DNA of 13,527 nt from an uncultured bacterium (lineage in GTDB: Bacteria; Auribacterota; JABMQX01; JAFGEW01). The notes below the pieces were generated by a model. That model saw nothing but the letters and a program-made list of their open reading frames with translations. It searched no databases and was not told where the DNA came from. This document shows positions 1 through 12,714 of the stretch, piece after piece. A program made the position numbers and the translations under genes. The number at the start of each line of letters is the position of its first letter. Position 1 is the stretch's first letter. The stretch is taken from NCBI GenBank assembly GCA_965369835.1, contig CBDUSE010000088.1, positions 1-13,527 on the forward strand, written 5' to 3'.

Positions 1-1
1 C

Positions 2-1399: not shown

Positions 1400-1416
1400 C
1401 GCGGCGGGCGAGGCGG

Positions 1417-2271
1417 CTAGAGCTCGAAGAGCCCCTTTTCCGCCTCGAGCGTTTCTTTGATCATTGTAAGGAATCCGTCAACTCGTTCTTTGGAAACGCC
1501 AAGGGCCTCCATGGTGATCTCCATGCCTTCGACGGGGATCTCGGCGCCCTCGGAGACCGGTACGAGTATCTGGTTAGTGATGCCGTCGGCCAGGTTGATG
1601 AGCGCGGTGAGCTCCTTGGGACGGGGCTTGAGCTTGTTGAACGCGGGCCTCTCGAGCGAGTGGTGTAGCCCGATGGCGGACTCGAAGTTCTCCGGCAGGT
1701 TCCACCGGTTTATGAGGACCGCCCCGACGTCGGCATGGGTAAACCCGTAGGCGTCACGCTCGCTGATGTAGCACGGGACGCCTTGCTTCTGCTGGGCGAG
1801 GATGTCGGTGTAGCGCTCAGGGTCCTGTGTGTGGAAGATGAGTTTGCCCAGGTCGTGCAGGAGCCCCGCGGTGAAGGCGTCCTCGAGGTTGCCGGGGCAA
1901 AACGCAATCGCAAGGACATGCGAGGCGACGCCGACGGCGAGCGAGTGCTCCCACAGCGTCTGTTCCGTGGCGCTCTGCTGGTGATAAAGGCTCTTGGTGC
2001 TGGTGGCGATGACCAGGTTCTTCAGGGTGTTGAACCCGAGCACGACGACGGCAAGCTGGATCGAGCCGACTTTACGCGCGCAGCCGTAGAACGCCGAGTT
2101 GGCGATCTTGAGGATGCGGGTCACCAGCGCCTGATCGGTCTCGATGACCTTCGAGAGCGAATCGGCCGAGGCCTCGAGGCTCATCAGTTCGCGCATGACG
2201 CGCGTGGCGACCACCGGCATCGGTGGGAGCGTGCAGGAGTTGCTGATAAGTTCATGCAGGTCTGTTGTCAT
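1417..2271 (-). CDS. HDOD (HD-related output domain) protein, about 284 aa. Putative signalling protein often associated with c-di-GMP or chemotaxis modules.
   Basis: The translation from MTTDLHELISNS... contains HDOD hallmarks: LKIANSAFYG, LAVVVLGFNTLKNLV, HSLAVGVASHVLA, AGLLHDLGKL. Start ATG at 2271-2269 is preceded by GGCGAGGACC (GAGG SD about 5 nt upstream). The longer 494-aa ORF extending to 2901 is an N-terminal shadow extension that runs through the intergenic region and overlaps cheY on the other strand. Confidence 0.85.
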   Translation of the reverse strand: MTTDLHELISNSCTLPPMPVVATRVMRELMSLEASADSLSKVIETDQALVTRILKIANSAFYGCARKVGSIQLAVVVLGFNTLKNLVIATSTKSLYHQQSATEQTLWEHSLAVGVASHVLAIAFCPGNLEDAFTAGLLHDLGKLIFHTQDPERYTDILAQQKQGVPCYISERDAYGFTHADVGAVLINRWNLPENFESAIGLHHSLERPAFNKLKPRPKELTALINLADGITNQILVPVSEGAEIPVEGMEITMEALGVSKERVDGFLTMIKETLEAEKGLFEL

Positions 2272-2433
2272 GGTCCTCGCCTTTGCTGAAGGCTTTGGCC
2301 ATTGATCCGTCACCTGGCCATTCTGGGAGGGGGCGGACGGCGTGTCAAGCACGAGAGGCGGGTTTTGGAAATACGGCAGGGGAAACCGCCGGCGCCGCCG
2401 GACCACTGGTTTAGCAGCCGCCCGGTGCAAAAG

Positions 2434-2449
2434 TGGCATAGAAATAGCG
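2434..2449 (+). promoter_or_regulatory. Sigma-54 (RpoN) -24/-12-like element, TGGCAT-N5-TAGCG, upstream of cheY
   Basis: The sequence aagTGGCATagaaaTAGCGtg has the GG and GC dinucleotides at the canonical spacing of TGGCAC-N5-TTGC. It lies about 33 nt upstream of the cheY ATG (2482), so the TSS would fall near 2460. Pattern match only. Confidence 0.3.
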
Positions 2450-2481
2450 TGCAAGATCAATAGGCAGGGAGGGAAGAGCTC

Positions 2482-2871
2482 ATGCCGAGCATGAAAGTGT
2501 TGGTCGTTGACGATTCTTCGACCATGCGCCGTATTATCATCAATTCCCTGAACAAGCTGCAGTTCAGTCAGGTCGCCGAGGCCGAGAACGGCGTGGACGC
2601 GCTCGAAAAACTCACCGCCGAAACCGGGTTGATCGTCACGGACTGGAACATGCCCGAGATGAACGGACTGGAGTTTATCAAGGCGCTCCGGTCGAAACCG
2701 CAGTACAAGGACGTGCCGATCATCATGGTCACTACCGAGGCGGGCAAGAGCGAGATCGTCGAGGCGATCAAGAACGGCGTGAACAACTACATCGTCAAGC
2801 CGTTCACGATCGATGTGCTCAGGGACAAGATCCAGAGCGTGCTGGGCATCGAGCTCGGAGAGCTCGGCTAA
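2482..2871 (+). CDS. cheY: CheY-like single-domain response regulator (receiver domain)
   Basis: MKVLVVDDSSTMRRII (acid pocket DD), phospho-acceptor Asp in IVTDWNMPEMNG, conserved Thr in IIMVTTEA, conserved Lys in YIVKPF. Length 129 aa. SD GGGAGGGAAG upstream of the ATG. Confidence 0.92.
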   Translation: MPSMKVLVVDDSSTMRRIIINSLNKLQFSQVAEAENGVDALEKLTAETGLIVTDWNMPEMNGLEFIKALRSKPQYKDVPIIMVTTEAGKSEIVEAIKNGVNNYIVKPFTIDVLRDKIQSVLGIELGELG

Positions 2872-2913
2872 CCGACGCGGCGCTGGACCAGACTGCTTCA
2901 TTAGGAGGTTACC

Positions 2914-3390
2914 ATGCCTGCATCCATGAAGGTTGATTACATCAACCCCTTTATTCGCAGCACGACCAATGCCCTCGAGACAATGGCGTTCACCAAGGCC
3001 AAGATCGGCAAGCCGTATCTGAAGACGGCCGACGCGCCGAAGTGCGACATCTCTGGCACGATCGGCTTGACCGGGGAAGCCACCGGCTCGGTCACCGTCA
3101 ACTTAGGCAAGGGTCTCGCCTGCGCGGTCATCTCGAGAATGCTCAGCGAGGAGCACACGGAGATGGATGCGACCGTCAAGGACGGTGTCGGCGAGATCGC
3201 CAACATGATTGCCGGCGGCGCCAAGGGCGAGATGCAGGACAAGGGCATGAACTTCCAGATCGCCCTGCCGACAGTGACGCTGGGGTTCGACCAGAGCCAC
3301 AGCCATCCGCCTGATGTGAGCTGTGTCGTTGTGCCGTTCTCGACGGACGTGGGGGATTTTACGATCGAGGTTGCCCTCAAGATAGGCTAG
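2914..3390 (+). CDS. cheX: CheX-type CheY-P phosphatase (CheC/CheX/FliY family)
   Basis: 158 aa. N-terminal MKVDYINPFIRSTTNALETM and central GEIANMIAGGAKGEM are characteristic of CheX/CheC-like phosphatases (E..N motif, here GEIAN). Strong SD TTAGGAGGTtaccATG. It sits immediately downstream of cheY with no terminator, so it is probably co-transcribed. Confidence 0.85.
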   Translation: MPASMKVDYINPFIRSTTNALETMAFTKAKIGKPYLKTADAPKCDISGTIGLTGEATGSVTVNLGKGLACAVISRMLSEEHTEMDATVKDGVGEIANMIAGGAKGEMQDKGMNFQIALPTVTLGFDQSHSHPPDVSCVVVPFSTDVGDFTIEVALKIG

Positions 3391-3414
3391 CCGCCGTACG
3401 CGGACGCAACACCG

Positions 3415-4698
3415 ATGGCGGCCCAGAGGCAACACTTCGCGGTCTCCTTCCGCCCATCTTCCGAGATCCGGAAGAGGCTTCGCCTCGGCACCATTGTGCG
3501 CGCTGTCGTTGTTCAGCCGCTGGCCAAGGGCACCGCGATGATCAGCGTCCGCGGCCTCAACACGGTTTCCGTTTCACCCCTTCCACTGATGCGTGGCCAG
3601 GTGCTCTACGCCGAAGTGACCGACATCGGCGAGAAGGTGCACTTGCGCATTGTGCCGTCGCCGAAGGTGCGTGAGGCAAGCCGGGCCACCACCGCCGCCG
3701 AACTGGCGCGCCACCTTGCCGGCCTCGGTATCGAACCGACCGAAGCGGCCATCTGCCTCGCCGCTGCTATGCTCTCAGCCGAGCTTCCGATCACGGCGGA
3801 GGATTTTGCCACGGTGTCCCGACTGGTGCATGAAGCGGGTCGCGACGACGAGGCGACGGCCGCGGCCGCTGCATACACCGTTCGCCATGGGCTCGCCGAC
3901 GATGCGGAAGCCATCGCAGCCGTGCGGGTGGCGCTCTTCGAGCCGCCGTGTCTCGGGGAGCTGCTTGTCGCCCTCGAGGCGGCGCTCTCGTCGGCCAATC
4001 CGGCGCCTTCCGGTCGGGAAAGTATCGCTTCAGCGGTCCGATCGCTCTTGAGACGCCTTCGTTCGGGCGGCCCGGGTGAGTGGCTCTCGTGCGCGGCGGA
4101 ACTCTACGCGGCACCCGCCCAGCCGGAAGCCGAATCCCCGTGCGACTGGCCGGCCCTGCTGGCGCAATGCGCACCCGGGGGAGAAGGAGACCTCGCCGAG
4201 ATCGCCACCCGTTTGCGCGCCGTGCTGGCCGGTTTGCGTGCGGCACACGAGGTCGGCACGCGTGCGGGGGAAGCTCGCTGGATGTTCCAGGTGCCGTTCG
4301 TCCGAAGGGGCGCTGTTGCCACCGCTTTTGTCGAGCTCGCCGGACCGCCGGGAGCATTGCACGCTATGCTCCTGCCAAGCCACGTCAAGGCGCCTGTGCC
4401 GAGCCTCATCGAGGTACGGGCCTGGGTGCCGCTCGAGGCTGACGGCATGGTGTGGTGCGAGCTTCGCGTCCAAGACGGGCTGGCAAAGGGCAAGCTGCGA
4501 GTGGTGGGGGCTGACGAGGCAGGCTCGGTCGCCGCTGAGGCCAAAGCCTGGATCGTCCGGGAGCTGCGTCGCGCCGGCACCGAGCTTTCGAGCCTTGTTG
4601 AGGAAGCTCCTGACGACGAGGGCGCCGGCGCGGGCCGGAGTACCGGCCCGGAGCGTGATCAGGTCATGCCGACAGTCGGCCTGGACTTCAGGATCTGA
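3415..4698 (+). CDS. Ala/Leu/Glu-rich hypothetical protein (427 aa), possibly a FliK-like hook-length-control or related flagellar/chemotaxis accessory protein
   Basis: Long ORF in the same frame as cheX, starting 8 codons after the cheX stop. It has a weak SD, so translational coupling or reinitiation is likely. GC3-biased codon usage, in contrast to the Arg/Pro-rich junk in overlapping frames. The N-terminal segment GTIVRAVVVQPLAKGTAMISVRG...GQVLYAEV and C-terminal segment LLPSHVKAPVPSLIEVRAWVPLEADGMVWCELRVQDGLAKGKLRVVGADEAG...AKAWIVRELRRAGTEL loosely recall the N- and C-terminal (Flg_hook) regions of FliK-type proteins. No confident family assignment. Confidence 0.55.
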   Translation: MAAQRQHFAVSFRPSSEIRKRLRLGTIVRAVVVQPLAKGTAMISVRGLNTVSVSPLPLMRGQVLYAEVTDIGEKVHLRIVPSPKVREASRATTAAELARHLAGLGIEPTEAAICLAAAMLSAELPITAEDFATVSRLVHEAGRDDEATAAAAAYTVRHGLADDAEAIAAVRVALFEPPCLGELLVALEAALSSANPAPSGRESIASAVRSLLRRLRSGGPGEWLSCAAELYAAPAQPEAESPCDWPALLAQCAPGGEGDLAEIATRLRAVLAGLRAAHEVGTRAGEARWMFQVPFVRRGAVATAFVELAGPPGALHAMLLPSHVKAPVPSLIEVRAWVPLEADGMVWCELRVQDGLAKGKLRVVGADEAGSVAAEAKAWIVRELRRAGTELSSLVEEAPDDEGAGAGRSTGPERDQVMPTVGLDFRI

Positions 4699-4715: not shown

Positions 4716-5165
4716 TCAGGCGCTGCGGTCAACGCCCGCCTTTTTCCCTGGAACAAAGTCCCTGGCGTAGGCGTGTAGTGTCTCCCGCCCTTTCCGCAGC
4801 CCGTTGAGTTCATCGGTCATTTCCGCTTTTCGTGTGCTGATCACCTCGGCGATGAGGTCGTCCTGCTGCGTGATGGACTCGACGAGTTTGTCCGACTTGC
4901 TGATGAGCGTGCGCAGGCGGGCCTTCTGGTCGGCGGAAAGCGTCCCGGCCCGTGTAGGCTCTAGCTGCGGGCCGAGTGCTTGCTCAAGCTCACGCCACTG
5001 CCGTAGTGCATGGTCGCGGCGGCGGATGAGCCGGTCGAGCCGTCGGGTTTTACCCTGCTCGACGCACTTGCGCTGGCGCTGGGCGAGTTCAAGCACCTCG
5101 GTCAGCAGCTCGACGCGCCGCTCGAACTTCGCAATGAGGTCTTCGTTGAGTGCGGTGGTCGTCAT
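4716..5165 (-). CDS. Small coiled-coil protein (about 149 aa), FlgN-like flagellar export chaperone family (tentative)
   Basis: The start at Met of MTTTALNEDLIAKFERRVELL... is supported by a strong SD (AGGAGGT, 5 nt upstream on the minus strand, plus coords 5171-5177). The protein is Leu/Glu/Arg/Gln-rich with heptad-like periodicity (LTEVLELAQRQRK..., LRTLISKSDKLVESITQQDDLIAEV) resembling FlgN-family chaperones. The ORF-track start at 5324 would overlap the upstream gene and lacks an SD. Confidence 0.55.
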   Translation of the reverse strand: MTTTALNEDLIAKFERRVELLTEVLELAQRQRKCVEQGKTRRLDRLIRRRDHALRQWRELEQALGPQLEPTRAGTLSADQKARLRTLISKSDKLVESITQQDDLIAEVISTRKAEMTDELNGLRKGRETLHAYARDFVPGKKAGVDRSA

Positions 5166-5175
5166 TTCGGACCTC

Positions 5176-6231
5176 CTATTTCGACACGATGCACAGCCCG
5201 CGATCGGCGAGCGGGAGCGTGACGCGTGCGCCGTCGCGCTTGCTCGACTCGAACATCGCAAGTGCCAGCTCGAGCGCCGCGCGGGCATCCTCGGCCGTCG
5301 AGGAGGTTGTGCCGCCCTGTTCAATCGCCTCGACGAGCTCTTTGACGGCGAGCACGTAGGGGTTCGTCTCGCCGGCGGGCGGCGACGGGAACGGCGCGCG
5401 GCGCAGCTCGAAGAAGCCGTCGTAGTGCGGGCTCTCGCCGGACTCGAAGAGCTCGAGTACGCCGTTGTTGCCGATCCGGACGCGGCCGCGGGAGCCGAGC
5501 AGGTCGAGCTCGAACAGCGAGTAGTCCTTGGCGATCGCGTCCACGTGCGCGTACGCGCCGCACTGCATCTCGATCGTGGCGACGCCGTCGCCGTCGTCGT
5601 TCGTCTCGTTGGTGTCGGGGTCCACGTGCGGCCACGTCGAGGCCGAGACCGATTGGGCCGGCCCGGCGAGCCACAGGAGCGCGTCGAAGAAGTGCGTCCC
5701 GGTGTGGATCATCTGGCCGCTGAACGCGCCGCGAACCGACTGCAACTCGCCAAGGCGGCCGTCGTCGAGCAGCGCCTTGAGCGCACGGAAGTCCCAGCAC
5801 CATCGGCGGCTGTGGTTGACGGTCATCGCGATGGTGCGTGTGCGGCAGAGCTCGACGATCTCATCCGCCGCCGCGAGGCTCGTCGCCAGCGCCTTCTCAC
5901 AGAAGATGCCGCGCACGCCGCACGCGATGGCCGCGCGCACGACGTCGAGCCGGACCGACGCAGGAGTACAAATGCTGACGAGATCGGGCCGTTGCTCGTC
6001 GAGCATCGTCTCGAAGTCGTCGTACGCGGCGGGGATGTCGAAGCGCTGCGCGAACTGTTCGGCGCTCTCGATCGTGCGGCCGGCGCAGGCGACAATGCGC
6101 GTCGCTTCGACCGCCCGGTAGGCGCCCGCGTGCGTGCTCGGGTGGCCGCGACGGGTATCGTCCTCGAGCAGGCCCGCGATCCGACCACACCCCACAATGG
6201 CAGCGCGTATGGTTTCTTCTCGAGCGGTCAT
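5176..6231 (-). CDS. Gfo/Idh/MocA-family NAD(P)-dependent oxidoreductase
   Basis: N-terminal Rossmann fingerprint IRAAIVGCGRIAGLL. Typical family elements follow: conserved EKA/EKP motif (here FCEKALA) and a C-terminal alpha/beta dimerization region. Its ATG (6231) overlaps the stop of the upstream gene in a palindromic TCATGA (ATGA-type coupling). Its stop at 5176 is 10 nt before the SD of the next gene. Confidence 0.85.
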   Translation of the reverse strand: MTAREETIRAAIVGCGRIAGLLEDDTRRGHPSTHAGAYRAVEATRIVACAGRTIESAEQFAQRFDIPAAYDDFETMLDEQRPDLVSICTPASVRLDVVRAAIACGVRGIFCEKALATSLAAADEIVELCRTRTIAMTVNHSRRWCWDFRALKALLDDGRLGELQSVRGAFSGQMIHTGTHFFDALLWLAGPAQSVSASTWPHVDPDTNETNDDGDGVATIEMQCGAYAHVDAIAKDYSLFELDLLGSRGRVRIGNNGVLELFESGESPHYDGFFELRRAPFPSPPAGETNPYVLAVKELVEAIEQGGTTSSTAEDARAALELALAMFESSKRDGARVTLPLADRGLCIVSK

Positions 6232-6578
6232 GACGGCTCTCTCGTGCGGCCGACGGCCTCCTCGATTGTCATCTTGCGGACGATACGCTTGACCTCGGCC
6301 ATGATCTCATCGCCGTCGTCCGGGGCGAACTTCTCGTCGAGGGCGCGGTCAATCGCAGCGAGCAGGTCCGGGTCGAGCTGCGCTGCGGCACTGCCGGCAA
6401 GCACCTCGCGGCCGATGCCCTCGACGACCGCCTCGCGCACGTCCCAGCGCTTGAACTGGTCGAGGTGCTTCTCGGTGAGGCGCGTGCCGCGCGGCAGGAG
6501 CATGAGGCCCTTGCTGTTGAACAGCGGCAGCGCCAGGACCATTCCGGGCTGAAGCTCGCTCAGGCTCAGCAGGCCCAT
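6228..6578 (-). CDS. Standalone DUF3391-like domain protein (116 aa). The domain is normally found N-terminal to HD-GYP phosphodiesterases.
   Basis: LSLSELQPGMVLALPLFNSKGLMLLPRGTRLTEKHLDQFKRWDVREAVVE matches the L-x-PGM-V ... G..L......I..L...GV..V pattern I associate with DUF3391. SD AAGGAGA about 9 nt upstream of the ATG at 6578. It is the first gene of a minus-strand operon, followed by the oxidoreductase and the FlgN-like gene. Confidence 0.65.
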   Translation of the reverse strand: MGLLSLSELQPGMVLALPLFNSKGLMLLPRGTRLTEKHLDQFKRWDVREAVVEGIGREVLAGSAAAQLDPDLLAAIDRALDEKFAPDDGDEIMAEVKRIVRKMTIEEAVGRTREPS

Positions 6579-6836: not shown

Positions 6837-8012
6837 GTGAGCAGGATCATAGACATCCAGGGCGCGGCCGAGCTGCTGGCGGTTGACTACAAGACCGTGT
6901 ACCGGCTCATCCGGAGCGGTGAGCTGCCGGCGGCCAGGATCGGGCGCATCTATCGTCTTGCGCTGGAGGACGTTGAGCGCTACTTCGAGGAGCGCAAGGC
7001 GGCTACGATGCGCGAGCTCCGGGCCAACGGCCGGGACAACCGTGTGGCCAGACCGCTGCACGGCGACGATAAGTCGGTCGAGCGCCGCTGCGCCTGGTGT
7101 GGCCGCGAGCTGGTGCTCAAATACTCCGTCGCCGCCGAATGTGATGAGCCGGGCTGCGAGGCGGTAATTTGCCGCGAGTGTGCCCGCGTGGATAAGGCGA
7201 CCCGCTGCCCGGCGCATGCCCGGCCGAAGGACCGCAACGAGCAGGTCGAGAGACTGCGCGCCGAAGGTCTCCCGGTCGTGGGCGCGGAGGACCTGCAAGC
7301 GCTTGCCGCCTCGTATCTCTCGGAGGTGACCGATCGCTTCGATCAACTCTCCGGCTGGCCCGCGGACAATGCGTCCCTCGTGCCCCGCGAAAAGCTTGCG
7401 GTGACGATTCGTCGCAACCCGGCAGCGGAGGAATGGCTTGCGCTCGACGGGGGAGCGGCGGCGTTCGAGGCGGAGATTGCGCGGCGCGGCCGGGTCCGAA
7501 CCGGTCGGGCGTTTCTTGCAGTACTGCTTGTGCCGGCGGTGCACCGGTCGGCATACAAACGGCACGGTTTCGACGTACAGCCGTGCACGGCCGCCGATCT
7601 CCGCGCAGTCCTCGATGAAACAGTAAGGACTCGCAAAGACATGGGCTACCTTGTTGTTACGGTTTGGTCGCCGACGGGATGGACGGAACAAGCGGTGGAT
7701 CGGGCGGCAACGGGCTTGCGCGCCGGCATTCGTGTGGTGCTCGTGGACCGGCCGGGCGGTCGCTGCTATGGCGCGGGCGAGCCGGTGGAATACCTCCTCA
7801 ACCCGCTCTCGGATGGGCCGGTGATCAGCGAGTGCGCAGCGTTCGTGCGGAACGGGCTCGCGGTGCAGTCGAGCATCCGGCTCGAGACACTCGTCGAGGA
7901 GGGCGGCTTCCACCGCGAGATCGCGCACCGCTGCTTCGAGCGGCTGGCGGCAACAGGCGAGTACCTCATTGACCGGTTCGACGACCTCGGCGCGGTTATT
8001 TCGAGGCGCTAG
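6837..8012 (+). CDS. Excisionase/MerR-type HTH (HTH_17) DNA-binding protein with a central Cys4 zinc-ribbon and a C-terminal domain of unknown function. First gene of the 4-gene operon.
   Basis: GTG start with GGAG 7 nt upstream. The N-terminus IIDIQGAAELLAVDYKTVYRLIRSGELPAARIGRIYRLALEDVERYF is a textbook excisionase-family HTH. The Cys cluster C-AWCGRELV...CDEPGCEAVICRECARV...RCPAH forms a zinc ribbon or treble clef. The C-terminal 200 aa have no recognisable family. The antisense 477-aa ORF (6762..8195) is rejected as a shadow. Confidence 0.8.
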   Translation: MSRIIDIQGAAELLAVDYKTVYRLIRSGELPAARIGRIYRLALEDVERYFEERKAATMRELRANGRDNRVARPLHGDDKSVERRCAWCGRELVLKYSVAAECDEPGCEAVICRECARVDKATRCPAHARPKDRNEQVERLRAEGLPVVGAEDLQALAASYLSEVTDRFDQLSGWPADNASLVPREKLAVTIRRNPAAEEWLALDGGAAAFEAEIARRGRVRTGRAFLAVLLVPAVHRSAYKRHGFDVQPCTAADLRAVLDETVRTRKDMGYLVVTVWSPTGWTEQAVDRAATGLRAGIRVVLVDRPGGRCYGAGEPVEYLLNPLSDGPVISECAAFVRNGLAVQSSIRLETLVEEGGFHREIAHRCFERLAATGEYLIDRFDDLGAVISRR

Positions 8013-8015
8013 GCG

Positions 8016-9518
8016 ATGGGCTTTTTGACGACACAATGTCCGTACTGTGGCGCGCGCGTGCGCAAGTCGAGCAACTTTTGTGGGGCGTGCGGCAAGCCGG
8101 CGCCGAAGCGGGCGGTGCATTGCGGCCGCTGCGGGCGTGCGAGCGCGTCGGGCGCGAAGTTCTGCTCGCACTGCGGCGCGGAACTCGCCCGACACGGCAA
8201 GGCGATGCTCGTGGACAACCGCTGGGCGCGCGAGCCCGAGGAGTTCGCGGTCGTCCTCGACGTTGAGGACCTGGCGGGTTTCTTGGCCAAGTCGCTGGTC
8301 GTCGAGCCGGGCACGCGCGCGCTCCTATTCCGTGGCGAGCGACACGCGGGCGTGCTCGAACCGGGCCGTCACACGGTCGAGAGCGTGCCGCGGCGGCTTG
8401 CGACGCTGGGGCGCGATGGACCGACGACGGTGGTTCTTGTCTCGGCTGACGACGTGGCGGTCGAGCTGGATCTGCCGGAGGTGTGGACGGCCGACGAGCA
8501 GGTGGTGTCGGTGAAGGTCTTCCTCGTCGTGCGGCTCGTGGACCCGCAGGCGTTCCGGCGCGAGGTCGTGGGCGCTAGGTGGCGCGTCCTGCTCGACGAC
8601 ATTCGCGAGCTGTGGCGCGCGGAGGGATTGCCGGTGGTGGCGGAGATCGTCCGGCGCGAGACGCTCGAGTCGCTCTGTGCGAGGCCGGGCCTCCGCGAAG
8701 CGGTCGAGGAGGAGCTGCGGATCGAGCTCAACGGCACGTGTGCGCGAAGCGGCCTCGAGCTTGTGCAGCTTCGCTGCCTCGACTTCTACGGCGACGCCTA
8801 CGAGCGGCTTCGCGCCGAACGCGGCGAGGCGTTCCAACTGAGCCGCGCGCTCGAGCTTTACAGGCGCGTGCAGGGCGAGCTGTCCGCCGAGCGGATCGAG
8901 CGCTTTCGGTCCGAGCAGGAGTTCGAGCAGTTCGTGCGCGAGGCCGAGCACCAGGCGGGACTCAAGGTGCTGCTGCGCGAGCAGGAAATCGAGGACTTCA
9001 AGCGGGCGTACCGCGAGCGGCTGGCGCTCGACACAGCGAGGCGCGAGATCGAGCAGGGCGCCGTCGCCTTCGAGTCGGAGCTCGAGAAGGAGAAGGCGCT
9101 CGACGAGCTGCGGTGGGCCAAGCGCGAACGTGGACTCGAGCTGCTCGAGAAGATTCGCGAGCTGCGCCACCGCGAGCGGCTGCGCCGGATCGAGACCGAT
9201 GAGCTCCGGCTCGGCATCTACAGCCGGGCGACGATCGAGGCGCTCATCGCCATCCTCGACGACGAGCGGGCCGACCGCCTGGTCGAGTTGCGGAAGTTTC
9301 AGGAGCAGACGAAGATGTCGCCCGAGCAACTGCTGGCGCTCGTGGCGGCGAACTCGCCCGAGGCGGCGCTGGCATTGGCGGAAAAGTACCGTTCTGAGGC
9401 GGCCATAACGGCCGAGACCTACGAGCGTGTCAGCGGCGAGATTGCCGCGGCGAGTGAGACAAGCGACGGCGAACCGATGCCGGAGCAGGAAAAACGCGAA
9501 GAGCAGGAGTACGCGTGA
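8016..9518 (+). CDS. Double zinc-ribbon :: SPFH/Band-7 (stomatin/flotillin-like) domain :: long Glu/Arg/Leu coiled-coil protein, without a predicted membrane anchor
   Basis: N-terminal CPYCGARV...FCGACGKP...HCGRCGRA...FCSHCGAEL contains four CxxC pairs (a double zinc ribbon). It is followed by SLVVEPGTRALLFRGERHAGVLEPGRHTV...TADEQVVSVKVFLVVRLVDPQAFRREV, matching the SPFH core pattern (PG..a..f.G.....l.PG.H ... T.D...V.V......v.dp). After that come about 250 aa of EA/ER-rich heptads as in flotillins. The ATG lies 3 nt after the stop of the previous gene (GAGG upstream). Confidence 0.8.
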   Translation: MGFLTTQCPYCGARVRKSSNFCGACGKPAPKRAVHCGRCGRASASGAKFCSHCGAELARHGKAMLVDNRWAREPEEFAVVLDVEDLAGFLAKSLVVEPGTRALLFRGERHAGVLEPGRHTVESVPRRLATLGRDGPTTVVLVSADDVAVELDLPEVWTADEQVVSVKVFLVVRLVDPQAFRREVVGARWRVLLDDIRELWRAEGLPVVAEIVRRETLESLCARPGLREAVEEELRIELNGTCARSGLELVQLRCLDFYGDAYERLRAERGEAFQLSRALELYRRVQGELSAERIERFRSEQEFEQFVREAEHQAGLKVLLREQEIEDFKRAYRERLALDTARREIEQGAVAFESELEKEKALDELRWAKRERGLELLEKIRELRHRERLRRIETDELRLGIYSRATIEALIAILDDERADRLVELRKFQEQTKMSPEQLLALVAANSPEAALALAEKYRSEAAITAETYERVSGEIAAASETSDGEPMPEQEKREEQEYA

Positions 9519-10984
9519 TGCCGCCGACGAGCTCCGAGAGGCGCGTGGCCAGGTGCCCCGAGTGCGACCACGAGGTATCGCACAAGCGCTACTGCGAGCA
9601 TTGCGGCGCGCTCCTGTCGAAGGCGATCGTGCCCGGGTCGCTCGGACTGGAGACGGTGCCGGCCGCTGCGGGCGACTTTCGGCTCGAGATTGACGCGTCG
9701 CGCGTGTTGCAGCAGTACGCGGTCGGCGTGCTCGAGCTGCGGCTCACGAACACCGGTGCGCACGAGGTGCAACTGGCGATGGTCGAGATCGAGACGCCGG
9801 TGGTGGACTCGCCGCTGCGCAGCATCGTGCGGGACGTGCGGCGCGGGCGGCACATGCCGTTGAGGTTCTCGGTCATCCCGGTGCGGCACGGCGAGGCGGC
9901 GTGCCGGGTGCGCATCAAGGCGCTGGATGCGGCGCAGGTCTTCAGCGTGCACGTGGGTGAGCTTACGCTCATCGTCAACCCACCGCACGTCGAGGAGACA
10001 ACGCTACAATTTGTCATCAAGAACAGCGATGTGGTGGGCGACTTCGAGAACGTCTTCAAGCCGGCGCGGCGCTGGCCGCGCGGCGTGATGCAGCCGCGGC
10101 GCCGCGCACTGTGGGTGCCGGTGCGGCTCGTCGAGGAGGTGCGCTGCGAAGTGCGGCCGGTGCGCAAGCAGATCGTCGGTCCGGAGCGCCTTGCGGGCGT
10201 GCCGCCGATGGAGAGAGCGGCGCTACGCATGCTCGAGCGGGGCGAGATGCGCACCGTGGCGCTCTTTGCCAAGCTCAAGCTTGCCTTCGGGCGAAGCTCA
10301 GCACCGGACCCGCAAAGCCGGGAGCGCAACGACGTGGTGCTTCGGCTCGAGCCGGACACGGCGCCAACCCGGGACCTCTCGCGGCGGATTCATCGCTTTG
10401 CCTTTCAGTTGCGCGCGGGGGCCGACGAGGTGCAGCTTGTGCGGCTCGGACGGCGCGATGGTCGGGTCGTTGTCGAGGCGATCGAGCCACTCGGCGACCG
10501 TGAGCCGATTGATGTGGCGGGACTTTTTGAGCTGATGCCCCGCATCGTCAAGGGGCCCGACTACCTCAGGTGGAAGAGGTTCAACGTGTATCGCGGTTCC
10601 GAGCGCGCGCCCGAGATCGAGCTGGTGGAGGTCTGCGTGCCGAGCGCCGAGCAGGTGCTCGGCGTGGTGCTCAGCCGCTCCGACGAGGCGGCCGAGCGCG
10701 AGGCGTACGTCCAGGTGCGCCGGTACGTGACGATCGGCGCCTCGCCCGAGGCGGCGATCGTGGTGCGCGAGCCGGGCGTCTCAGGCATTCATGCGCGGCT
10801 GATCGCTAAGGGAGGCCTTTTTCTCGTCGAGGACCTCGGCAGCGCGAACGGTACGTGGGTCAACGAGCGGCGCCTCCAGCCGGACGAGGTCGCGCCGCTC
10901 AAGTACGGTGACCACATCATGCTGGGCAACACGGCGCTGGCGTTCGAGCCGTTTGAGCAGCACTTTGGAGAGGGCGATTCGTGA
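9515..10984 (+). CDS. Zinc-ribbon :: central beta-rich region :: C-terminal FHA (forkhead-associated, phospho-Thr binding) domain protein
   Basis: The ATG overlaps the preceding stop (GTGATG; AGGAG 8 nt upstream). N-terminal RCPECDHEV...YCEHCGAL is a zinc ribbon. The C-terminal YVTIGASPEAAIVVREPGVSGIHARLIAKGGLFLVEDLGSANGTWVNERRL...GDHIMLGNTALAF carries the FHA signature (G-[RA], S-x-x-H, DLGS-NGT-xVN), though GA replaces the usual GR. Confidence 0.8.
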   Translation: MMPPTSSERRVARCPECDHEVSHKRYCEHCGALLSKAIVPGSLGLETVPAAAGDFRLEIDASRVLQQYAVGVLELRLTNTGAHEVQLAMVEIETPVVDSPLRSIVRDVRRGRHMPLRFSVIPVRHGEAACRVRIKALDAAQVFSVHVGELTLIVNPPHVEETTLQFVIKNSDVVGDFENVFKPARRWPRGVMQPRRRALWVPVRLVEEVRCEVRPVRKQIVGPERLAGVPPMERAALRMLERGEMRTVALFAKLKLAFGRSSAPDPQSRERNDVVLRLEPDTAPTRDLSRRIHRFAFQLRAGADEVQLVRLGRRDGRVVVEAIEPLGDREPIDVAGLFELMPRIVKGPDYLRWKRFNVYRGSERAPEIELVEVCVPSAEQVLGVVLSRSDEAAEREAYVQVRRYVTIGASPEAAIVVREPGVSGIHARLIAKGGLFLVEDLGSANGTWVNERRLQPDEVAPLKYGDHIMLGNTALAFEPFEQHFGEGDS

Positions 10985-12714
10985 ACCGGGACGCGCCGGG
11001 CACAAAAAAGAGCCGACCGCACGATCCGCTCGACGAGGCGACCACCTTCGTCGAGGGACGCCGGGTGGCGCAACCGTTCGAGGTGGGCGATACGGTCTCG
11101 GACCGGTACGTGCTACGTGCGGGGCTTGGCCGAGGCGGGATGGGCGTCGTGTACCGTGCCGACGACCTGCTGTTGGACGAGCCGGTGGCGATCAAGATGA
11201 TGAGCCCGGCGCTGCTGGCGAGCGAGTCGCTCTCGCGGCGTTTCTTCGAGGAGGCGCGAATCGCCCGCCGGCTCAACCACGACAACATCATTCGCGTCAA
11301 CGACGTCGGCGAGACCGAGGGTGTCAAGTACATCACGATGGAGTTTGTGGATGGCATCTCGCTGCGCGAGTGGATCCGCGCGCACGCACACAGCGAGACA
11401 GGTTCAGAGTACCTGGCGGACACCCTCTTCATTGTGCGGCAGATCTGCGCCGGGCTGCGATACGCGCACCGGCACACGCTGCACCGCGACCTCAAGCCGG
11501 AGAACGTGCTCCTGAGCAACGACGGGCAGGTCAAGATCGCCGACTTCGGCATTGCCCGGCTCAAGGACCGGGCCGACTACACGGTCTCGAAGGCGCGGTT
11601 CGGCACGATGTACTACGTCGCGCCCGAGCGGCTTTCGGGAACGGGCGACGACGCGCGCTCGGACCTCTACTCGCTCGGCGTCCTTTTCTACGAGATGCTC
11701 ACCGGCCGGCTGCCGGTCGGCCTGTTCGCGATGCCGACGAAGCTCGACCCCGAGCTGCCGGCGGTCATTGACGAGATCGTGGCGAAGCTGCTCGCCTTCA
11801 ACCCGCGCGACCGCTACCGGTCGGCAGCCGACGTGCTGCTCGAGCTTGACAAGCTCAGCGGGCGGCAGGTCTGGCGCGAGGCGCCTGCGACTGCCGCGGA
11901 AGCCAGGGCAAAGGCGGAGGTCGCGACTTCCTTGGAAACGGAACCGACCGTCACGACTGCTCGCGCCACACCGGCTCCCCCCACGCGGCGGACGGCTCCC
12001 GCTGGGATGGTGCTCATTCCGGGGGGCACGTTCAAGATGGGGAGCGAGACGGGCGACGAGGACGAGCAGCCGATTCACGCGGTCAAGATCGAGCCATTCT
12101 TCATGGACCAGGCGCCGGTGACAAACGCGCAGTTCTTCGAGTTCCTCCAGGCACGGCCCGAGTGGCGCAAGGCCGCAGCCGATCGCGCCCGGACCGACCG
12201 CGACTACCTCGCGCTCTGGAACTACAACACCTATCCGCCGGAGCTGAGGGACCACCCGGTGGTGTTCGTGAGCTGGTACGCGGCGAGGGCGTACGCCGAG
12301 TGGCGCGGCTGCCGCCTGCCGACCGAGGCGGAGTGGGAGCACGCCGCGCGTGGCGGGCTCGAGGAACGCGAGTTCCCGTGGGGCGACCTGCCGGATTCGG
12401 ACCGGGCGCACTTCCACTCGAGCCTCGGGACGGTGCCCGTGAAGTCGTTCCCGCCGAATGGGCACGACCTGTTCGAGATGGCGGGCAACGTCTGGGAATG
12501 GTGCGAGGACTGGTACGACGAGAAGTTCTACCGCGGCCTGACCGAAAGGGTTGAGGGTCCCGTATGCAGCGATTCGGCGAGCGGCCTGAAGGTGATTCGC
12601 GGTGGCGCGTGGTGCTACTACGCTTATGTGATGCGCTGCGCCTTCCGGAGCGGCTTCCCGCCGCATTCAGCCGACATCAACGGCGGCTTCCGCTGCGCCC
12701 GCAGTCTTGGCTGA
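10981..12714 (+). CDS. Hanks-type Ser/Thr protein kinase fused through an Ala/Pro/Thr-rich linker to a C-terminal FGE-sulfatase (SUMF1/EgtB/PvdO-like) domain
   Basis: The GTG start overlaps the upstream stop (GGAGAGGG 8 nt upstream). All catalytic kinase motifs are present: LGRGGMGVVY, VAIKMM, FFEEARIARRL, HRDLKPENVLL, DFGIAR, YVAPERL. After the linker PAPPTRRTAPAG comes an FGE-sulfatase fold: MVLIPGGTFKMGS, PIHAVKIEPFFMDQAPVTNAQF, WEHAARGG, GNVWEWCEDWY, IRGGAWCYYAYVMRCAFRSG, GFRCARS. No hydrophobic transmembrane segment is visible. Confidence 0.9.
   Translation: MNRDAPGTKKSRPHDPLDEATTFVEGRRVAQPFEVGDTVSDRYVLRAGLGRGGMGVVYRADDLLLDEPVAIKMMSPALLASESLSRRFFEEARIARRLNHDNIIRVNDVGETEGVKYITMEFVDGISLREWIRAHAHSETGSEYLADTLFIVRQICAGLRYAHRHTLHRDLKPENVLLSNDGQVKIADFGIARLKDRADYTVSKARFGTMYYVAPERLSGTGDDARSDLYSLGVLFYEMLTGRLPVGLFAMPTKLDPELPAVIDEIVAKLLAFNPRDRYRSAADVLLELDKLSGRQVWREAPATAAEARAKAEVATSLETEPTVTTARATPAPPTRRTAPAGMVLIPGGTFKMGSETGDEDEQPIHAVKIEPFFMDQAPVTNAQFFEFLQARPEWRKAAADRARTDRDYLALWNYNTYPPELRDHPVVFVSWYAARAYAEWRGCRLPTEAEWEHAARGGLEEREFPWGDLPDSDRAHFHSSLGTVPVKSFPPNGHDLFEMAGNVWEWCEDWYDEKFYRGLTERVEGPVCSDSASGLKVIRGGAWCYYAYVMRCAFRSGFPPHSADINGGFRCARSLG

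What the first reader, a model, noticed from the sequence alone, without database searches (positions are those of the whole stretch)
10981..12714. Cytoplasmic Ser/Thr kinase fused to an FGE-sulfatase-like domain with atypical Cys spacing
The kinase half has every catalytic motif and should be active. The C-terminal half has the FGE/SUMF1 fold motifs, but the region where I would expect the catalytic Cys pair reads RGGAWCYYAYVMRCAFRSG, with the two Cys 8 residues apart. From memory, catalytic FGEs have a closer pair (C-x4-C) in the equivalent RGGS.-C...YC.RYR stretch. No signal peptide or TM segment is present, so the FGE-like domain is cytoplasmic. Canonical FGE is periplasmic or ER-luminal and oxidises sulfatase Cys to formylglycine. 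The domain here may be a ligand-binding or sensor module, or a different Cu-dependent oxidase such as the EgtB/OvoA or PvdO types.
Basis: partly seen in the sequence, partly recalled or inferred. Interest (0 to 1): 0.6.

Follow-up and report, generated by a model that had tools for sequence, protein, structure and literature searches.

The report
Soluble kinase with inactive FGE-like domain
This gene encodes an apparently active cytoplasmic Ser/Thr protein kinase fused to a formylglycine-generating-enzyme-like domain that has lost the copper-binding catalytic site; this fusion is common, has been reported in the literature since 2005, and its extra domain most likely binds a ligand or partner rather than doing chemistry.

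Summary
ORF 10981-12714 (+) encodes 577 aa: a Hanks-type kinase with all catalytic motifs, a roughly 45-residue disordered linker, and a full-length FGE-sulfatase domain (Pfam E 4e-63). No hydrophobic segment reaches TM strength.

Solved FGEs are the closest structures, but the active site is not retained. Only one Cu(I) ligand may survive (Cys545). The second is Val550, the catalytic Ser is Ala543, the substrate-contacting Arg is deleted, and the FGE-specific insert is about 27 residues shorter. Cys553 sits at a framework position that alternates Cys/Thr in related fusions. EgtB/OvoA and PvdO readings fail: there is no DinB half and scores are far below curated cut-offs.

The fusion is not unusual. 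Thousands of homologues exist, with or without a TM linker, and none of those inspected has C-x4-C. The architecture is in the literature, including cytoplasmic chlamydial Pkn1. The FGE active-site loop is the most conserved region within clades and among the least conserved between them, which fits a specificity-determining binding surface.

The gene ends a four-gene operon conserved in a small Verrucomicrobiota clade.

Verdict: an ordinary new member of a known, functionally uncharacterised kinase family.

The parts
10981..12714 (+). Complete gene for the 577-aa Ser/Thr kinase fused to an FGE-like domain (GTG start, TGA stop)
   Evidence: The identical protein P0001 is called on ENA contig NODE_357 (L001).
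11107..11856 (+). Hanks-type Ser/Thr kinase domain (residues 43-292). Key residues: K72, E91, D170, N175, DFG 188-190, APE 214-216. It is an RD kinase with Thr/Ser in the activation loop.
   Evidence: Pfam Pkinase E 4.8e-46. Motifs located and their conservation shown. Foldseek matches PknA/PknB kinase domains at TM about 0.8 on the target.
11857..12000 (+). Ala/Pro/Thr-rich linker (residues 293-340) with no hydrophobic segment
   Evidence: AF2 pLDDT is below 50 for 293-302 and 311-337. The maximum KD19 in the linker is -0.02.
12001..12702 (+). FGE-sulfatase / C-type-lectin-fold domain (residues 341-574), predicted catalytically inactive as an FGE
   Evidence: Pfam PF03781 E 3.7e-63 over the full profile. 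phmmer against PDB: Sco FGE 9e-42, Tcu FGE 7.5e-39, human FGE 9e-36. Foldseek top hit is 2q17.
12598..12651 (+). Loop RGGAWCYYAYVMRCAFRS (residues 540-557), equivalent to the FGE active-site loop. Ala543 replaces the catalytic Ser. Cys545 aligns with Cu ligand 1. Val550 replaces Cu ligand 2. There is a 3-residue deletion that includes the substrate-contacting Arg. Cys553 is at a framework position.
   Evidence: Residue-by-residue HMMER alignments to 6muj, 6s07 and 2afy. tcFGE residue roles come from PMC6676471. Within-clade identity is 0.85 and between-clade identity is 0.30.
9518..10984 (+). Upstream, translationally coupled gene: 488-aa protein with an N-terminal Zn-ribbon, an unknown middle region and a C-terminal FHA domain. 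The FHA lacks the canonical pThr-contacting Arg (GR is GA), and the Ser and Asn positions are variable.
   Evidence: Pfam FHA E 7e-17. Gene call. FHA alignment. Full-length homologues occur in only 9 clusters.
8016..9518 (+). 500-aa protein with a double Zn-ribbon, an SPFH/Band-7 domain and a Glu/Arg-rich helical tail, with no TM segment; same operon
   Evidence: Pfam DZR, Zn_ribbon and Band_7. Maximum KD19 is 1.52. Synteny.
6837..8012 (+). 391-aa protein with an N-terminal HTH_17 (excisionase/MerR-like) domain, a Cys-rich segment and an unknown C-terminal region; first gene of the operon
   Evidence: Pfam HTH_17 E 4.6e-13. Nothing further was found at relaxed thresholds. Synteny.

Best explanation
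The gene encodes a soluble, cytoplasmic, catalytically competent Hanks-type (RD) Ser/Thr kinase. Its C-terminal FGE-sulfatase-fold domain is not a formylglycine-generating enzyme. It is most likely a non-catalytic binding module, the 'FGS'/C-type-lectin-fold sensor type. The surface that forms the substrate groove in true FGEs (the 540-568 loop plus the 392-423 insert) would here bind a clade-specific ligand or protein. That binding would control where, or on what, the flexibly tethered kinase acts.

Shown here: the domain composition, the intact kinase motifs, the loss of the FGE Cu site, the absence of TM or signal segments, the conservation pattern of the loop, and the operon synteny.

Inferred: that the domain binds rather than catalyses, and that binding regulates or targets the kinase. 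The identity of the ligand is unknown. The operon partners (a Zn-ribbon/degenerate-FHA protein, a Zn-ribbon/SPFH protein and an HTH_17 protein) are candidate substrates or outputs, but this link is inference only.
For: 1. Both domains are real. Pfam gives Pkinase 4.8e-46 and FGE-sulfatase 3.7e-63. AF2 plus Foldseek match Sco FGE and PknA/PknB, with a disordered linker between the two folds.
2. The kinase catalytic residues are present and are invariant or nearly so across 33 fusion proteins.
3. The FGE active site is largely lost (alignments, read against the tcFGE residue roles in PMC6676471). Cu ligand Cys274 is Val550. Ser266 is Ala543; S266A costs 50-fold in kcat in tcFGE. Arg276 is deleted. 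The insert that carries Trp108/Trp109 is about 27 residues shorter and is poorly modelled (pLDDT below 50 for 398-417).
4. All 33 TM-less kinase-fused domains aligned share the shorter loop, and none of the 120 best hits has C-x4-C. Stand-alone canonical FGEs in PVC loci keep GGS[FY][LM]C-x4-C and carry signal-like N-termini or sulfatase fusions.
5. Loop 543-568 is 0.85 identical within clades but only 0.30 between clades. The fold framework gives 0.76 and 0.50. This is the pattern expected of a specificity-determining surface.
6. There are precedents for non-catalytic FGE-fold domains: FGS sensor or effector domains in conflict systems and NLR-like proteins (PMC7159879; bioRxiv 10.1101/2022.07.19.500537) and Tsi3 immunity proteins (bioRxiv 10.1101/2021.05.21.445229). 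Cytoplasmic chlamydial Pkn1 has the same two-domain plan and is a validated kinase (PMC5177608; bioRxiv 10.64898/2026.09.24.754023).
Against: - No ligand or partner has been identified, and nothing here directly shows binding.
- The nearest solved structures are true FGEs, at about 34% identity.
- Cys545 aligns with Cu ligand 1 and Trp505 with the O2-pocket Trp228. Four Cys (444, 529, 545, 553) are specific to this clade, so a thiol- or metal-dependent function is not excluded. Cys-Cys distances could not be measured because the tool gives no model coordinates.
- The operon FHA domain lacks the canonical pThr-binding Arg, which weakens the simple 'kinase to FHA reader' scheme.
- One related lineage (L003-L006) keeps the kinase without the three upstream genes, so the kinase does not depend strictly on them.
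Confidence: 0.6

Rival explanations
1. Cys-based redox or metal (for example Cu(I) or Zn) sensing. The clade-specific cysteines of the FGE-like domain (Cys545 at the former Cu-ligand position, with Cys553, Cys529 or Cys444) form a reversible disulfide or metal site that switches the kinase.
For: Cys545 aligns with Cu ligand 1 of FGEs. Cys444, 529, 545 and 553 are conserved throughout the orthologous clade at 74-100% identity and are mostly absent from other kinase-fused clades. The domain is cytoplasmic, so the thiols would be reduced.
Against: Cys553 occupies a position that alternates Cys/Thr across clades and equals the buried structural Cys346 of human FGE, so it probably does not face the groove. 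FGE needs two ligands five residues apart on a loop that is 3 residues longer than the one here. The orthologues are too close (74% identity or more) for conservation of four Cys to mean much. No distances could be measured.
Confidence: 0.12
2. A new enzymatic activity on the FGE fold, acting on a small molecule or a protein side chain and coupled to phosphorylation. This would be a cofactor-independent or differently metallated oxidase in the manner of ToxD, CalU17 or PvdO.
For: The FGE fold hosts several enzymes. PDB hits include ToxD (6e-20), CalU17 (5e-20) and PvdO (5e-14). The loop and insert are strongly conserved within the clade.
Against: No curated enzyme family is reached: EgtB 118 of 360 bits, SenA 113 of 420, PvdO 65 of 500. 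There is no DinB half. No biosynthetic genes are in the neighbourhood, which holds signalling, chemotaxis and flagellar genes. The loop differs completely between kinase-fused clades, which is unlike a conserved catalytic site.
Confidence: 0.1
3. A bona fide, if divergent, formylglycine-generating enzyme that matures cytoplasmic or pre-export sulfatases under kinase control.
For: True FGEs are the best PDB matches, at E 1e-41 to 1e-35 and in Foldseek. One Cys and the O2-pocket Trp are retained.
Against: The second Cu ligand, the catalytic Ser and the substrate-contacting Arg are all missing, and the insert is truncated. [quoted passage not shown] Canonical FGEs in related phyla are separate proteins that keep C-x4-C. 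There is no sulfatase in the operon and no CxPxR motif in the operon proteins.
Confidence: 0.03
4. Part of an anti-phage or conflict system in which the FGS domain senses an invader and the kinase is the effector, as in PD-T4-6, MADS or Stk2-like kinase defences.
For: PADLOC kinase models (PD-T4-6, mad6) match the kinase half, and mad1 matches the HTH. FGS domains act as sensors in conflict systems (PMC7159879). The three upstream genes are present in some lineages and absent in another.
Against: The PADLOC and NCBIfam hits are generic domain matches far below curated cut-offs: MAD6 173 of 460 bits and MAD1 29 of 80. The whole neighbourhood, from CheA to the 2-oxoacid dehydrogenase genes, is syntenic in a MAG whose FHA protein is only 62% identical. 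That indicates vertical chromosomal inheritance, not a defence island. No NTPase, nuclease, methylase, or DGR reverse transcriptase or template repeat is present.
Confidence: 0.07

Closest known systems
Chlamydia trachomatis Pkn1 (CT145), a cytoplasmic Hanks kinase with a SUMF1-related C-terminal domain
   Same: The two-domain plan is the same: an N-terminal STK and a C-terminal FGE-sulfatase-type domain. Both are predicted cytoplasmic and both come from the PVC superphylum. Pkn1 autophosphorylates and is essential for cell division (PMC1262709; PMC5177608; bioRxiv 10.64898/2026.09.24.754023).
   Different: Chlamydial kinases are reported not to sit in operons with partners, whereas this gene ends a four-gene operon. 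The role of Pkn1's C-terminal domain is also unknown.
STK-DUF323/FGE-sulfatase fusions of cyanobacteria, myxobacteria, Planctomycetes and Chloroflexi, including the 'Proteo1' family of the bacterial STK atlas
   Same: The architecture is the same and so is the short non-FGE loop (RGG-x10-R-[CT]). Many members also have a 25-50 residue TM-less linker (PMC2176072; bioRxiv 10.1101/2025.01.12.632604).
   Different: Identity is only 35-42%. The loop sequence is clade-specific (CYYAYVMRC here). Many relatives have a TM helix that places the domain outside the cell. Several occur in tandem arrays, for example four in a row in Gimesia L038, while this gene appears once in each locus retrieved.
Catalytic FGE (human SUMF1; S. 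coelicolor, T. curvata and M. tuberculosis FGE)
   Same: The fold is the same, with 33-35% identity. The NVWEW Trp (tcFGE W228) and the GFRC tail are retained, and one Cys lies at the position of Cu ligand 1.
   Different: It lacks Cu ligand 2 (Val550), the catalytic Ser (Ala543) and Arg276. The active-site loop is 3 residues shorter and the insert about 27 residues shorter. It is fused to a kinase and has no export signal.
Non-catalytic FGE-fold proteins: pFGE/SUMF2, T6SS immunity protein Tsi3, T9SS PorK/GldK, DGR variable proteins (TvpA), and FGS sensor domains of NACHT/ternary conflict systems
   Same: All have the FGE/C-type-lectin fold without the catalytic Cys pair and use it as a binding scaffold. 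In the DGR proteins the variable region lies at the C-terminal end of the FGS domain (PMC7159879). From memory, it covers the stretch equivalent to residues 543-568 here; this was not checked..
   Different: None of these is fused to a protein kinase. Most are secreted, periplasmic or lipoproteins. There is no DGR template repeat or reverse transcriptase here, and scores to GldK and PvdO models are far below their cut-offs.

Membership tests
Hanks-type (eukaryote-like) Ser/Thr protein kinase | Gly-rich loop, VAIK Lys, alphaC Glu, HRDLKPxN catalytic loop, DFG and APE motifs | tested here: met
   All motifs are present at residues 49-57, 72, 91, 168-175, 188-190 and 214-216. Pfam Pkinase scores 157.7 bits against a cut-off of 31.7.
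Hanks-type (eukaryote-like) Ser/Thr protein kinase | Phosphotransfer activity | not testable with these tools
   This needs an in vitro autophosphorylation assay.
FGE-sulfatase superfamily (PF03781, C-type-lectin-like fold) | Full-length match to the family HMM above the gathering score, and the FGE fold | tested here: met
   214 bits against a cut-off of 23.3, covering profile positions 3-255 of 255. Foldseek top hit is 2q17 at E 6e-21.
Catalytic formylglycine-generating enzyme (SUMF1 type) | Two active-site Cys in C-x4-C that ligate Cu(I) (tcFGE C269/C274; human C336/C341) | tested here: not met
   Cys545 aligns with the first Cys. The second aligns with Val550 against the Sco and Tcu enzymes, or with Ala548 against the human enzyme. 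The loop is 3 residues shorter. Both Cys are required for activity (PMC2459300; PMC6676471).
Catalytic formylglycine-generating enzyme (SUMF1 type) | Active-site Ser (tcFGE S266, human S333) and Arg276 next to the Cu site | tested here: not met
   The Ser is Ala543 (GGS becomes GGA). Arg276 falls in the deleted positions.
Catalytic formylglycine-generating enzyme (SUMF1 type) | O2-pocket Trp (tcFGE W228) | tested here: met
   Trp505 in NVWEWC aligns with the first Trp of tcFGE NVWEW.
Catalytic formylglycine-generating enzyme (SUMF1 type) | FGE-specific insert carrying Trp108/Trp109 | tested here: inconclusive
   HMMER splits the alignment here. The query has 32 residues where Sco FGE has 59. 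AF2 pLDDT is below 50 for 398-417. The query does have Trp395 and Trp413, but their equivalence cannot be established.
EgtB / OvoA / SenA sulfoxide (selenoxide) synthases | N-terminal DinB_2 domain contributing to the non-haem iron active site, and a score above the NCBIfam cut-off | tested here: not met
   The EgtB model matches only over positions 146-413 of 413, at 118 bits against 360. SenA scores 113 against 420 and OvoA 36 against 400. The N-terminal half of this protein is a kinase.
PvdO (dihydropyoverdine dehydrogenase) | Score above the family cut-off; periplasmic export | tested here: not met
   65 bits against a cut-off of 500. There is no signal-like N-terminus.
PorK/GldK/GldJ T9SS lipoproteins | Score above the family cut-off; lipoprotein signal | tested here: not met
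   GldK scores 131.5 bits against 350 and GldJ 61 against 458. There is no signal peptide.
DGR variable protein (FGS/CLec type) | Template repeat matching the 3' variable region, and a nearby reverse transcriptase | tested here: not met
   No direct repeat involves 12560-12714. No RT domain is found among the window proteins. Only this window was searched; a distant TR elsewhere in the genome is not excluded.
Chlamydial Pkn1-type kinase | STK plus C-terminal SUMF1-like domain, cytoplasmic | tested here: met
   The architecture and predicted location match the published description.
Chlamydial Pkn1-type kinase | Orthology (reciprocal best hit or a shared clade in a tree) | not tested
   The Pkn1 sequence could not be retrieved with the available tools.
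Kinase-based phage defence (PD-T4-6, MADS MAD6) | Score above the curated cut-off and the characteristic partner genes | tested here: not met
   NCBIfam MAD6 scores 173 bits against 460 and MAD1 29 against 80. PADLOC hits cover only the generic kinase core. There are no methylase or other MADS genes.

The most novel reading that the evidence does not exclude
The clade-specific cysteines in the remodelled FGE active-site loop (Cys545, with Cys553, Cys529 or Cys444) make the cytoplasmic FGE-like domain a thiol, Cu(I) or redox sensor that switches the kinase. Together with the degenerate-FHA, Zn-ribbon/SPFH and HTH_17 partners, it would form a previously undescribed four-component stress-signalling cassette in Verrucomicrobiota.
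Probability: 0.1. Interest if true: 0.55.

Novelty: new member of a known kind. Interest (0 to 1): 0.22.

Why it matters
It matters mainly for annotation. Databases label such proteins 'formylglycine-generating enzyme required for sulfatase activity' or 'SUMF1/EgtB/PvdO family nonheme iron enzyme', and even solved FGE-fold proteins carry 'Ser/Thr kinase' names (5nxl and 7spq). This analysis shows the kinase-fused domain cannot be a canonical FGE or an EgtB.

The function of the FGE-like domain in this very large kinase family, which includes essential chlamydial Pkn1, is still unknown. The conservation pattern points to loop 543-568 and insert 392-423 as the surfaces to mutate.

The finding does not open a long-standing question or overturn any expectation.

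Tried and rejected
- DGR target: rejected for this window. There is no template repeat and no reverse transcriptase.
- Defence island: rejected. PADLOC and NCBIfam hits are generic and sub-threshold, and the whole neighbourhood is syntenic in a distant MAG.
- EgtB/OvoA/SenA, PvdO, GldK: rejected on missing domains, missing signals and curated cut-offs.
- FGE recognition motif: a search for CxPxR in the operon proteins found none.
- Partner domains: Pfam at relaxed thresholds and PDB sequence searches on the unknown regions of the HTH_17 and FHA proteins, plus relaxed Pfam on the 427-aa and 116-aa neighbours, gave nothing significant.
- Cys-Cys distances: the prediction tool returns no coordinates, so they could not be measured.
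- Chlamydial Pkn1: its sequence could not be retrieved for direct comparison.
- Gene calls: the 582-aa (+) ORF at 4804-6552 listed mechanically is most likely spurious. The called genes there are on the minus strand: FlgN, GFO_IDH_MocA and a 116-aa protein.
- Cytoplasmic location as evidence: I considered arguing that it is uninformative because some bacterial FGEs are cytoplasmic (my own knowledge of actinobacterial FGEs).

Full report
**1. The observation**

- The ORF at 10981-12714 (+) exists and encodes 577 residues.
- Its GTG start overlaps the stop of the upstream gene as GTGA. A GGAGAG motif lies about 10 nt upstream.
- An identical protein (P0001) is called on a 19,979-bp ENA metagenome contig that contains the whole window (L001 coordinate + 980 = window coordinate).
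- Pfam finds Pkinase at residues 46-246 (E 4.8e-46) and FGE-sulfatase at 341-574, covering 3-255 of 255 profile positions (E 3.7e-63).
- The quoted string RGGAWCYYAYVMRCAFRS is residues 540-557. The two Cys are 545 and 553.
- The highest 19-residue Kyte-Doolittle mean in the protein is 1.26, inside the kinase fold. The N-terminus is charged, and the inter-domain linker peaks at -0.02. No TM helix or signal peptide is indicated.
- SignalP and TMHMM were not available, so this last point rests on hydropathy only.

**2. The kinase half**

- All Hanks motifs are present: LGRGGMGVV (49-57), VAIK (K72), E91, HRDLKPEN (168-175), DFG (188-190), APE (214-216).
- In an alignment of 33 TM-less kinase-FGE fusions, D170, K172, N175, D188, F189 and G190 are invariant. 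K72 and E91 are nearly invariant.
- The AF2 model is mean pLDDT 72 and pTM 0.52, with low confidence in 293-302 and 311-337. Its kinase part superposes on M. tuberculosis PknA/PknB at target TM about 0.8.
- It is an RD kinase with Thr/Ser in the activation loop, so activation by autophosphorylation is plausible. That last step is inference.

**3. The FGE-like half**

Solved FGEs are the nearest structures by sequence: S. coelicolor 9e-42, T. curvata 7.5e-39, human 9e-36. They rank ahead of EgtB (2e-21), CalU17 and ToxD (about 5e-20), PorK (about 5e-19) and PvdO (5e-14). They are also nearest by fold.

The residue-by-residue alignments were read against the tcFGE residue roles in PMC6676471:

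| tcFGE residue | Role | Query |
|---|---|---|
| Cys269 | Cu ligand 1 | Cys545 |
| Cys274 | Cu ligand 2 | Val550 (Ala548 in the alignment to human FGE) |
| Ser266 | Active-site Ser; S266A lowers kcat 50-fold | Ala543 |
| Arg276 | Contacts the substrate Cys | Falls in a deletion |
| Trp228 | O2 pocket | Trp505 (retained) |

- The whole active-site loop is 3 residues shorter than in FGEs.
- The FGE-specific insert that carries Trp108/Trp109 is 32 residues here against 59 in Sco FGE. It is the least confident part of the domain model.
- Cys553 aligns with human Cys346. From my own knowledge of Dierks et al. 2005, that is a structural disulfide Cys. Its partner position (human Cys235) is Ala in the query.
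- The domain therefore cannot form the bis-thiolate Cu(I) site and is not a canonical FGE.

**4. EgtB/OvoA and PvdO**

- The NCBIfam EgtB model matches only over positions 146-413 of 413, at 118 bits against a cut-off of 360.
- SenA scores 113 against 420, OvoA 36 against 400, PvdO 65 against 500 and GldK 131 against 350.
- The DinB_2 half needed for the EgtB active site is replaced here by a kinase.

**5. How common the fusion is, and the Cys pattern**

- The protein search returned 7,263 significant hits among the 8,000 candidates scored.
- Among the best 120, kinase-FGE fusions fall into two topologies. One has a strongly hydrophobic segment in a long linker, which would place the domain outside the cell. 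The other has a short (25-50 residue) non-hydrophobic linker like the query.
- None has C-x4-C.
- In the alignment of 33 TM-less fusions, all share the short loop RGG-x10-R-[C/T]. Position 553 is Cys in 13 and Thr in 18. Position 545 is Cys only in the query's own clade and one other protein. Cys508 (WEWC) and Cys572 (GFRC) are family-wide.
- The 'C-x7-C' is therefore one common framework Cys plus one clade-specific Cys, not a shared motif.
- By contrast, stand-alone proteins in Planctomycetota, Phycisphaerae and other loci keep GGS[FY][LM]C-x4-C-x2-YR. Among the four PVC loci examined (L037, L041, L043, L054), the proteins have signal-like N-termini or are fused to a sulfatase.
- The literature already records the architecture:
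  - chlamydial STKs with a NirV/DUF323 domain (PMC1262709);
  - cyanobacterial STK-DUF323, including tandem paralogues in Trichodesmium (PMC2176072);
  - the 'Proteo1' family of the bacterial STK atlas (bioRxiv 10.1101/2025.01.12.632604);
  - cytoplasmic chlamydial Pkn1, a validated kinase whose C-terminal domain InterPro relates to SUMF1 and which is now implicated in cell division (PMC5177608; bioRxiv 10.64898/2026.09.24.754023).

**6. What the domain probably does**

I compared four clades of TM-less fusions:

| Region | Identity within clades | Identity between clades |
|---|---|---|
| Loop 543-568 | 0.85 | 0.30 |
| Insert 392-423 | 0.77 | 0.28 |
| Rest of the fold | 0.76 | 0.50 |
| Kinase | 0.81 | 0.41 |

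- In true FGEs, the loop carries the Cu ligands and Arg276, and the insert carries Trp108/Trp109, which hold a water bonded to the substrate backbone.
- In DGR-diversified FGS proteins the hypervariable region is at the C-terminal end of the domain (PMC7159879). That it corresponds to this loop is my recollection and was not checked here.
- High constraint within a clade combined with divergence between clades is what a specificity-determining binding surface would show.
- There are precedents for catalytically dead FGE-fold binders: Tsi3, FGS sensor domains of conflict systems and NACHT proteins, and PorK and TvpA among the PDB hits.
- Together this makes a non-catalytic ligand- or partner-binding module the best-supported reading.
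- It remains an inference. No ligand is known, and a Cys-based redox or metal role for Cys545 is not excluded.

**7. Genomic context**

Gene calls on the source contig and my Pfam scans give the following order:

- CheA
- HDOD (minus strand)
- CheY-like receiver
- CheX
- a 427-aa unknown protein
- FlgN (minus strand)
- GFO_IDH_MocA oxidoreductase (minus strand)
- a 116-aa unknown protein (minus strand)
- then a plus-strand operon with abutting or overlapping stops and starts:
  - HTH_17 protein (6837-8012)
  - double Zn-ribbon/SPFH protein (8016-9518)
  - Zn-ribbon/FHA protein (9518-10984)
  - the kinase (10981-12714)
- a convergent cold-shock gene

All four operon proteins lack hydrophobic segments.

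The closest genomes are Verrucomicrobiota MAGs, at 84% and 81% identity. The operon, and in the two loci that reach that far (L019 from FlgN, L090 from CheA) the upstream neighbourhood as well, is conserved in L019, L090 (GCA_016931415.1), L092, L007, L008 and L010. This argues for vertical inheritance rather than a mobile island.

One related lineage, whose kinase is 74% identical (L003-L006), has the kinase directly after the 116-aa gene and lacks the three upstream genes.

Full-length homologues of the FHA protein exist in only nine clusters, all from this clade. In all nine of these orthologues, as in the window protein, its FHA domain has Ala in place of the canonical pThr-contacting Arg (GR becomes GA). 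The Ser and Asn positions vary. The identification of these positions as the pThr-binding residues is from my own knowledge of FHA domains. The simple 'kinase phosphorylates, FHA reads' model is therefore doubtful, and the FHA protein may instead be a substrate or a scaffold.

**8. Verdict**

- The oxidase alternative is not supported.
- The feature is a routine member of a large, long-recognised and functionally uncharacterised kinase family.
- Novelty: new member of a known kind.
- Interest is low to modest.

Noticed in passing
window 9518-10984 (FHA domain, residues about 400-475): The FHA domain of the upstream, translationally coupled protein has Ala instead of the canonical pThr-contacting Arg (IGAS instead of GR) in all nine orthologue clusters, as in the window protein. 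The Ser of SxxH and the Asn of NG also vary. It may not bind phosphothreonine.
   Followed up: partly
window 6837-10984 compared with L003-L006: The three genes upstream of the kinase (HTH_17, Zn-ribbon/SPFH, Zn-ribbon/FHA) are missing in a related lineage whose kinase is 74% identical. The flanking genes (HDOD, FlgN, the 116-aa gene, CSD) are kept. The cassette was therefore gained or lost as a unit.
   Followed up: partly
window 8016-9518: This SPFH/Band-7 protein has no TM segment. It carries two N-terminal Zn-ribbons and a long Glu/Arg-rich helical tail, which is an unusual soluble SPFH architecture. Zn-ribbon Pfam domains are also fused directly to some kinase-FGE proteins (P0070, P0080, P0093).
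   Followed up: no
window 6837-8012: The HTH_17 protein has a Cys-rich segment (about residues 85-125, CxxC...CxxxxxC...CxxC...C) and a C-terminal region of about 250 residues with no detectable family.
   Followed up: partly
window 4804-6552 (+) compared with 4716-6578 (-): The long 582-aa plus-strand ORF has no family hit. It overlaps three called minus-strand genes (FlgN, GFO_IDH_MocA oxidoreductase, a 116-aa protein) and is probably a high-GC artefact.
   Followed up: yes
window 1-4698: This is a chemotaxis cluster: a CheA C-terminal part, an HDOD protein on the minus strand, a CheY-like receiver (2482-2871), CheX, and then a 427-aa Ala-rich protein with no family hit. The cluster is syntenic in L090.
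   Followed up: no
L038 (Gimesia sp.), L052, L044, L034: Planctomycetota carry tandem arrays of up to four consecutive kinase-FGE-like genes. This resembles the tandem DUF323 kinases reported in Trichodesmium.
   Followed up: no
L041 and L043 (Planctomycetota/Phycisphaerales MAGs): These loci encode 811-aa proteins that fuse an N-terminal sulfatase-like region to a canonical FGE domain (GGSFLCGPNFC). They have a mildly hydrophobic N-terminus. This would be an enzyme-plus-maturase fusion.
   Followed up: no
PDB names (5nxl, 7spq): Solved FGE-fold proteins are deposited under 'serine/threonine protein kinase' names (T. curvata FGE, ToxD). This looks like annotation carried over from kinase-FGE fusions.
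   Followed up: no
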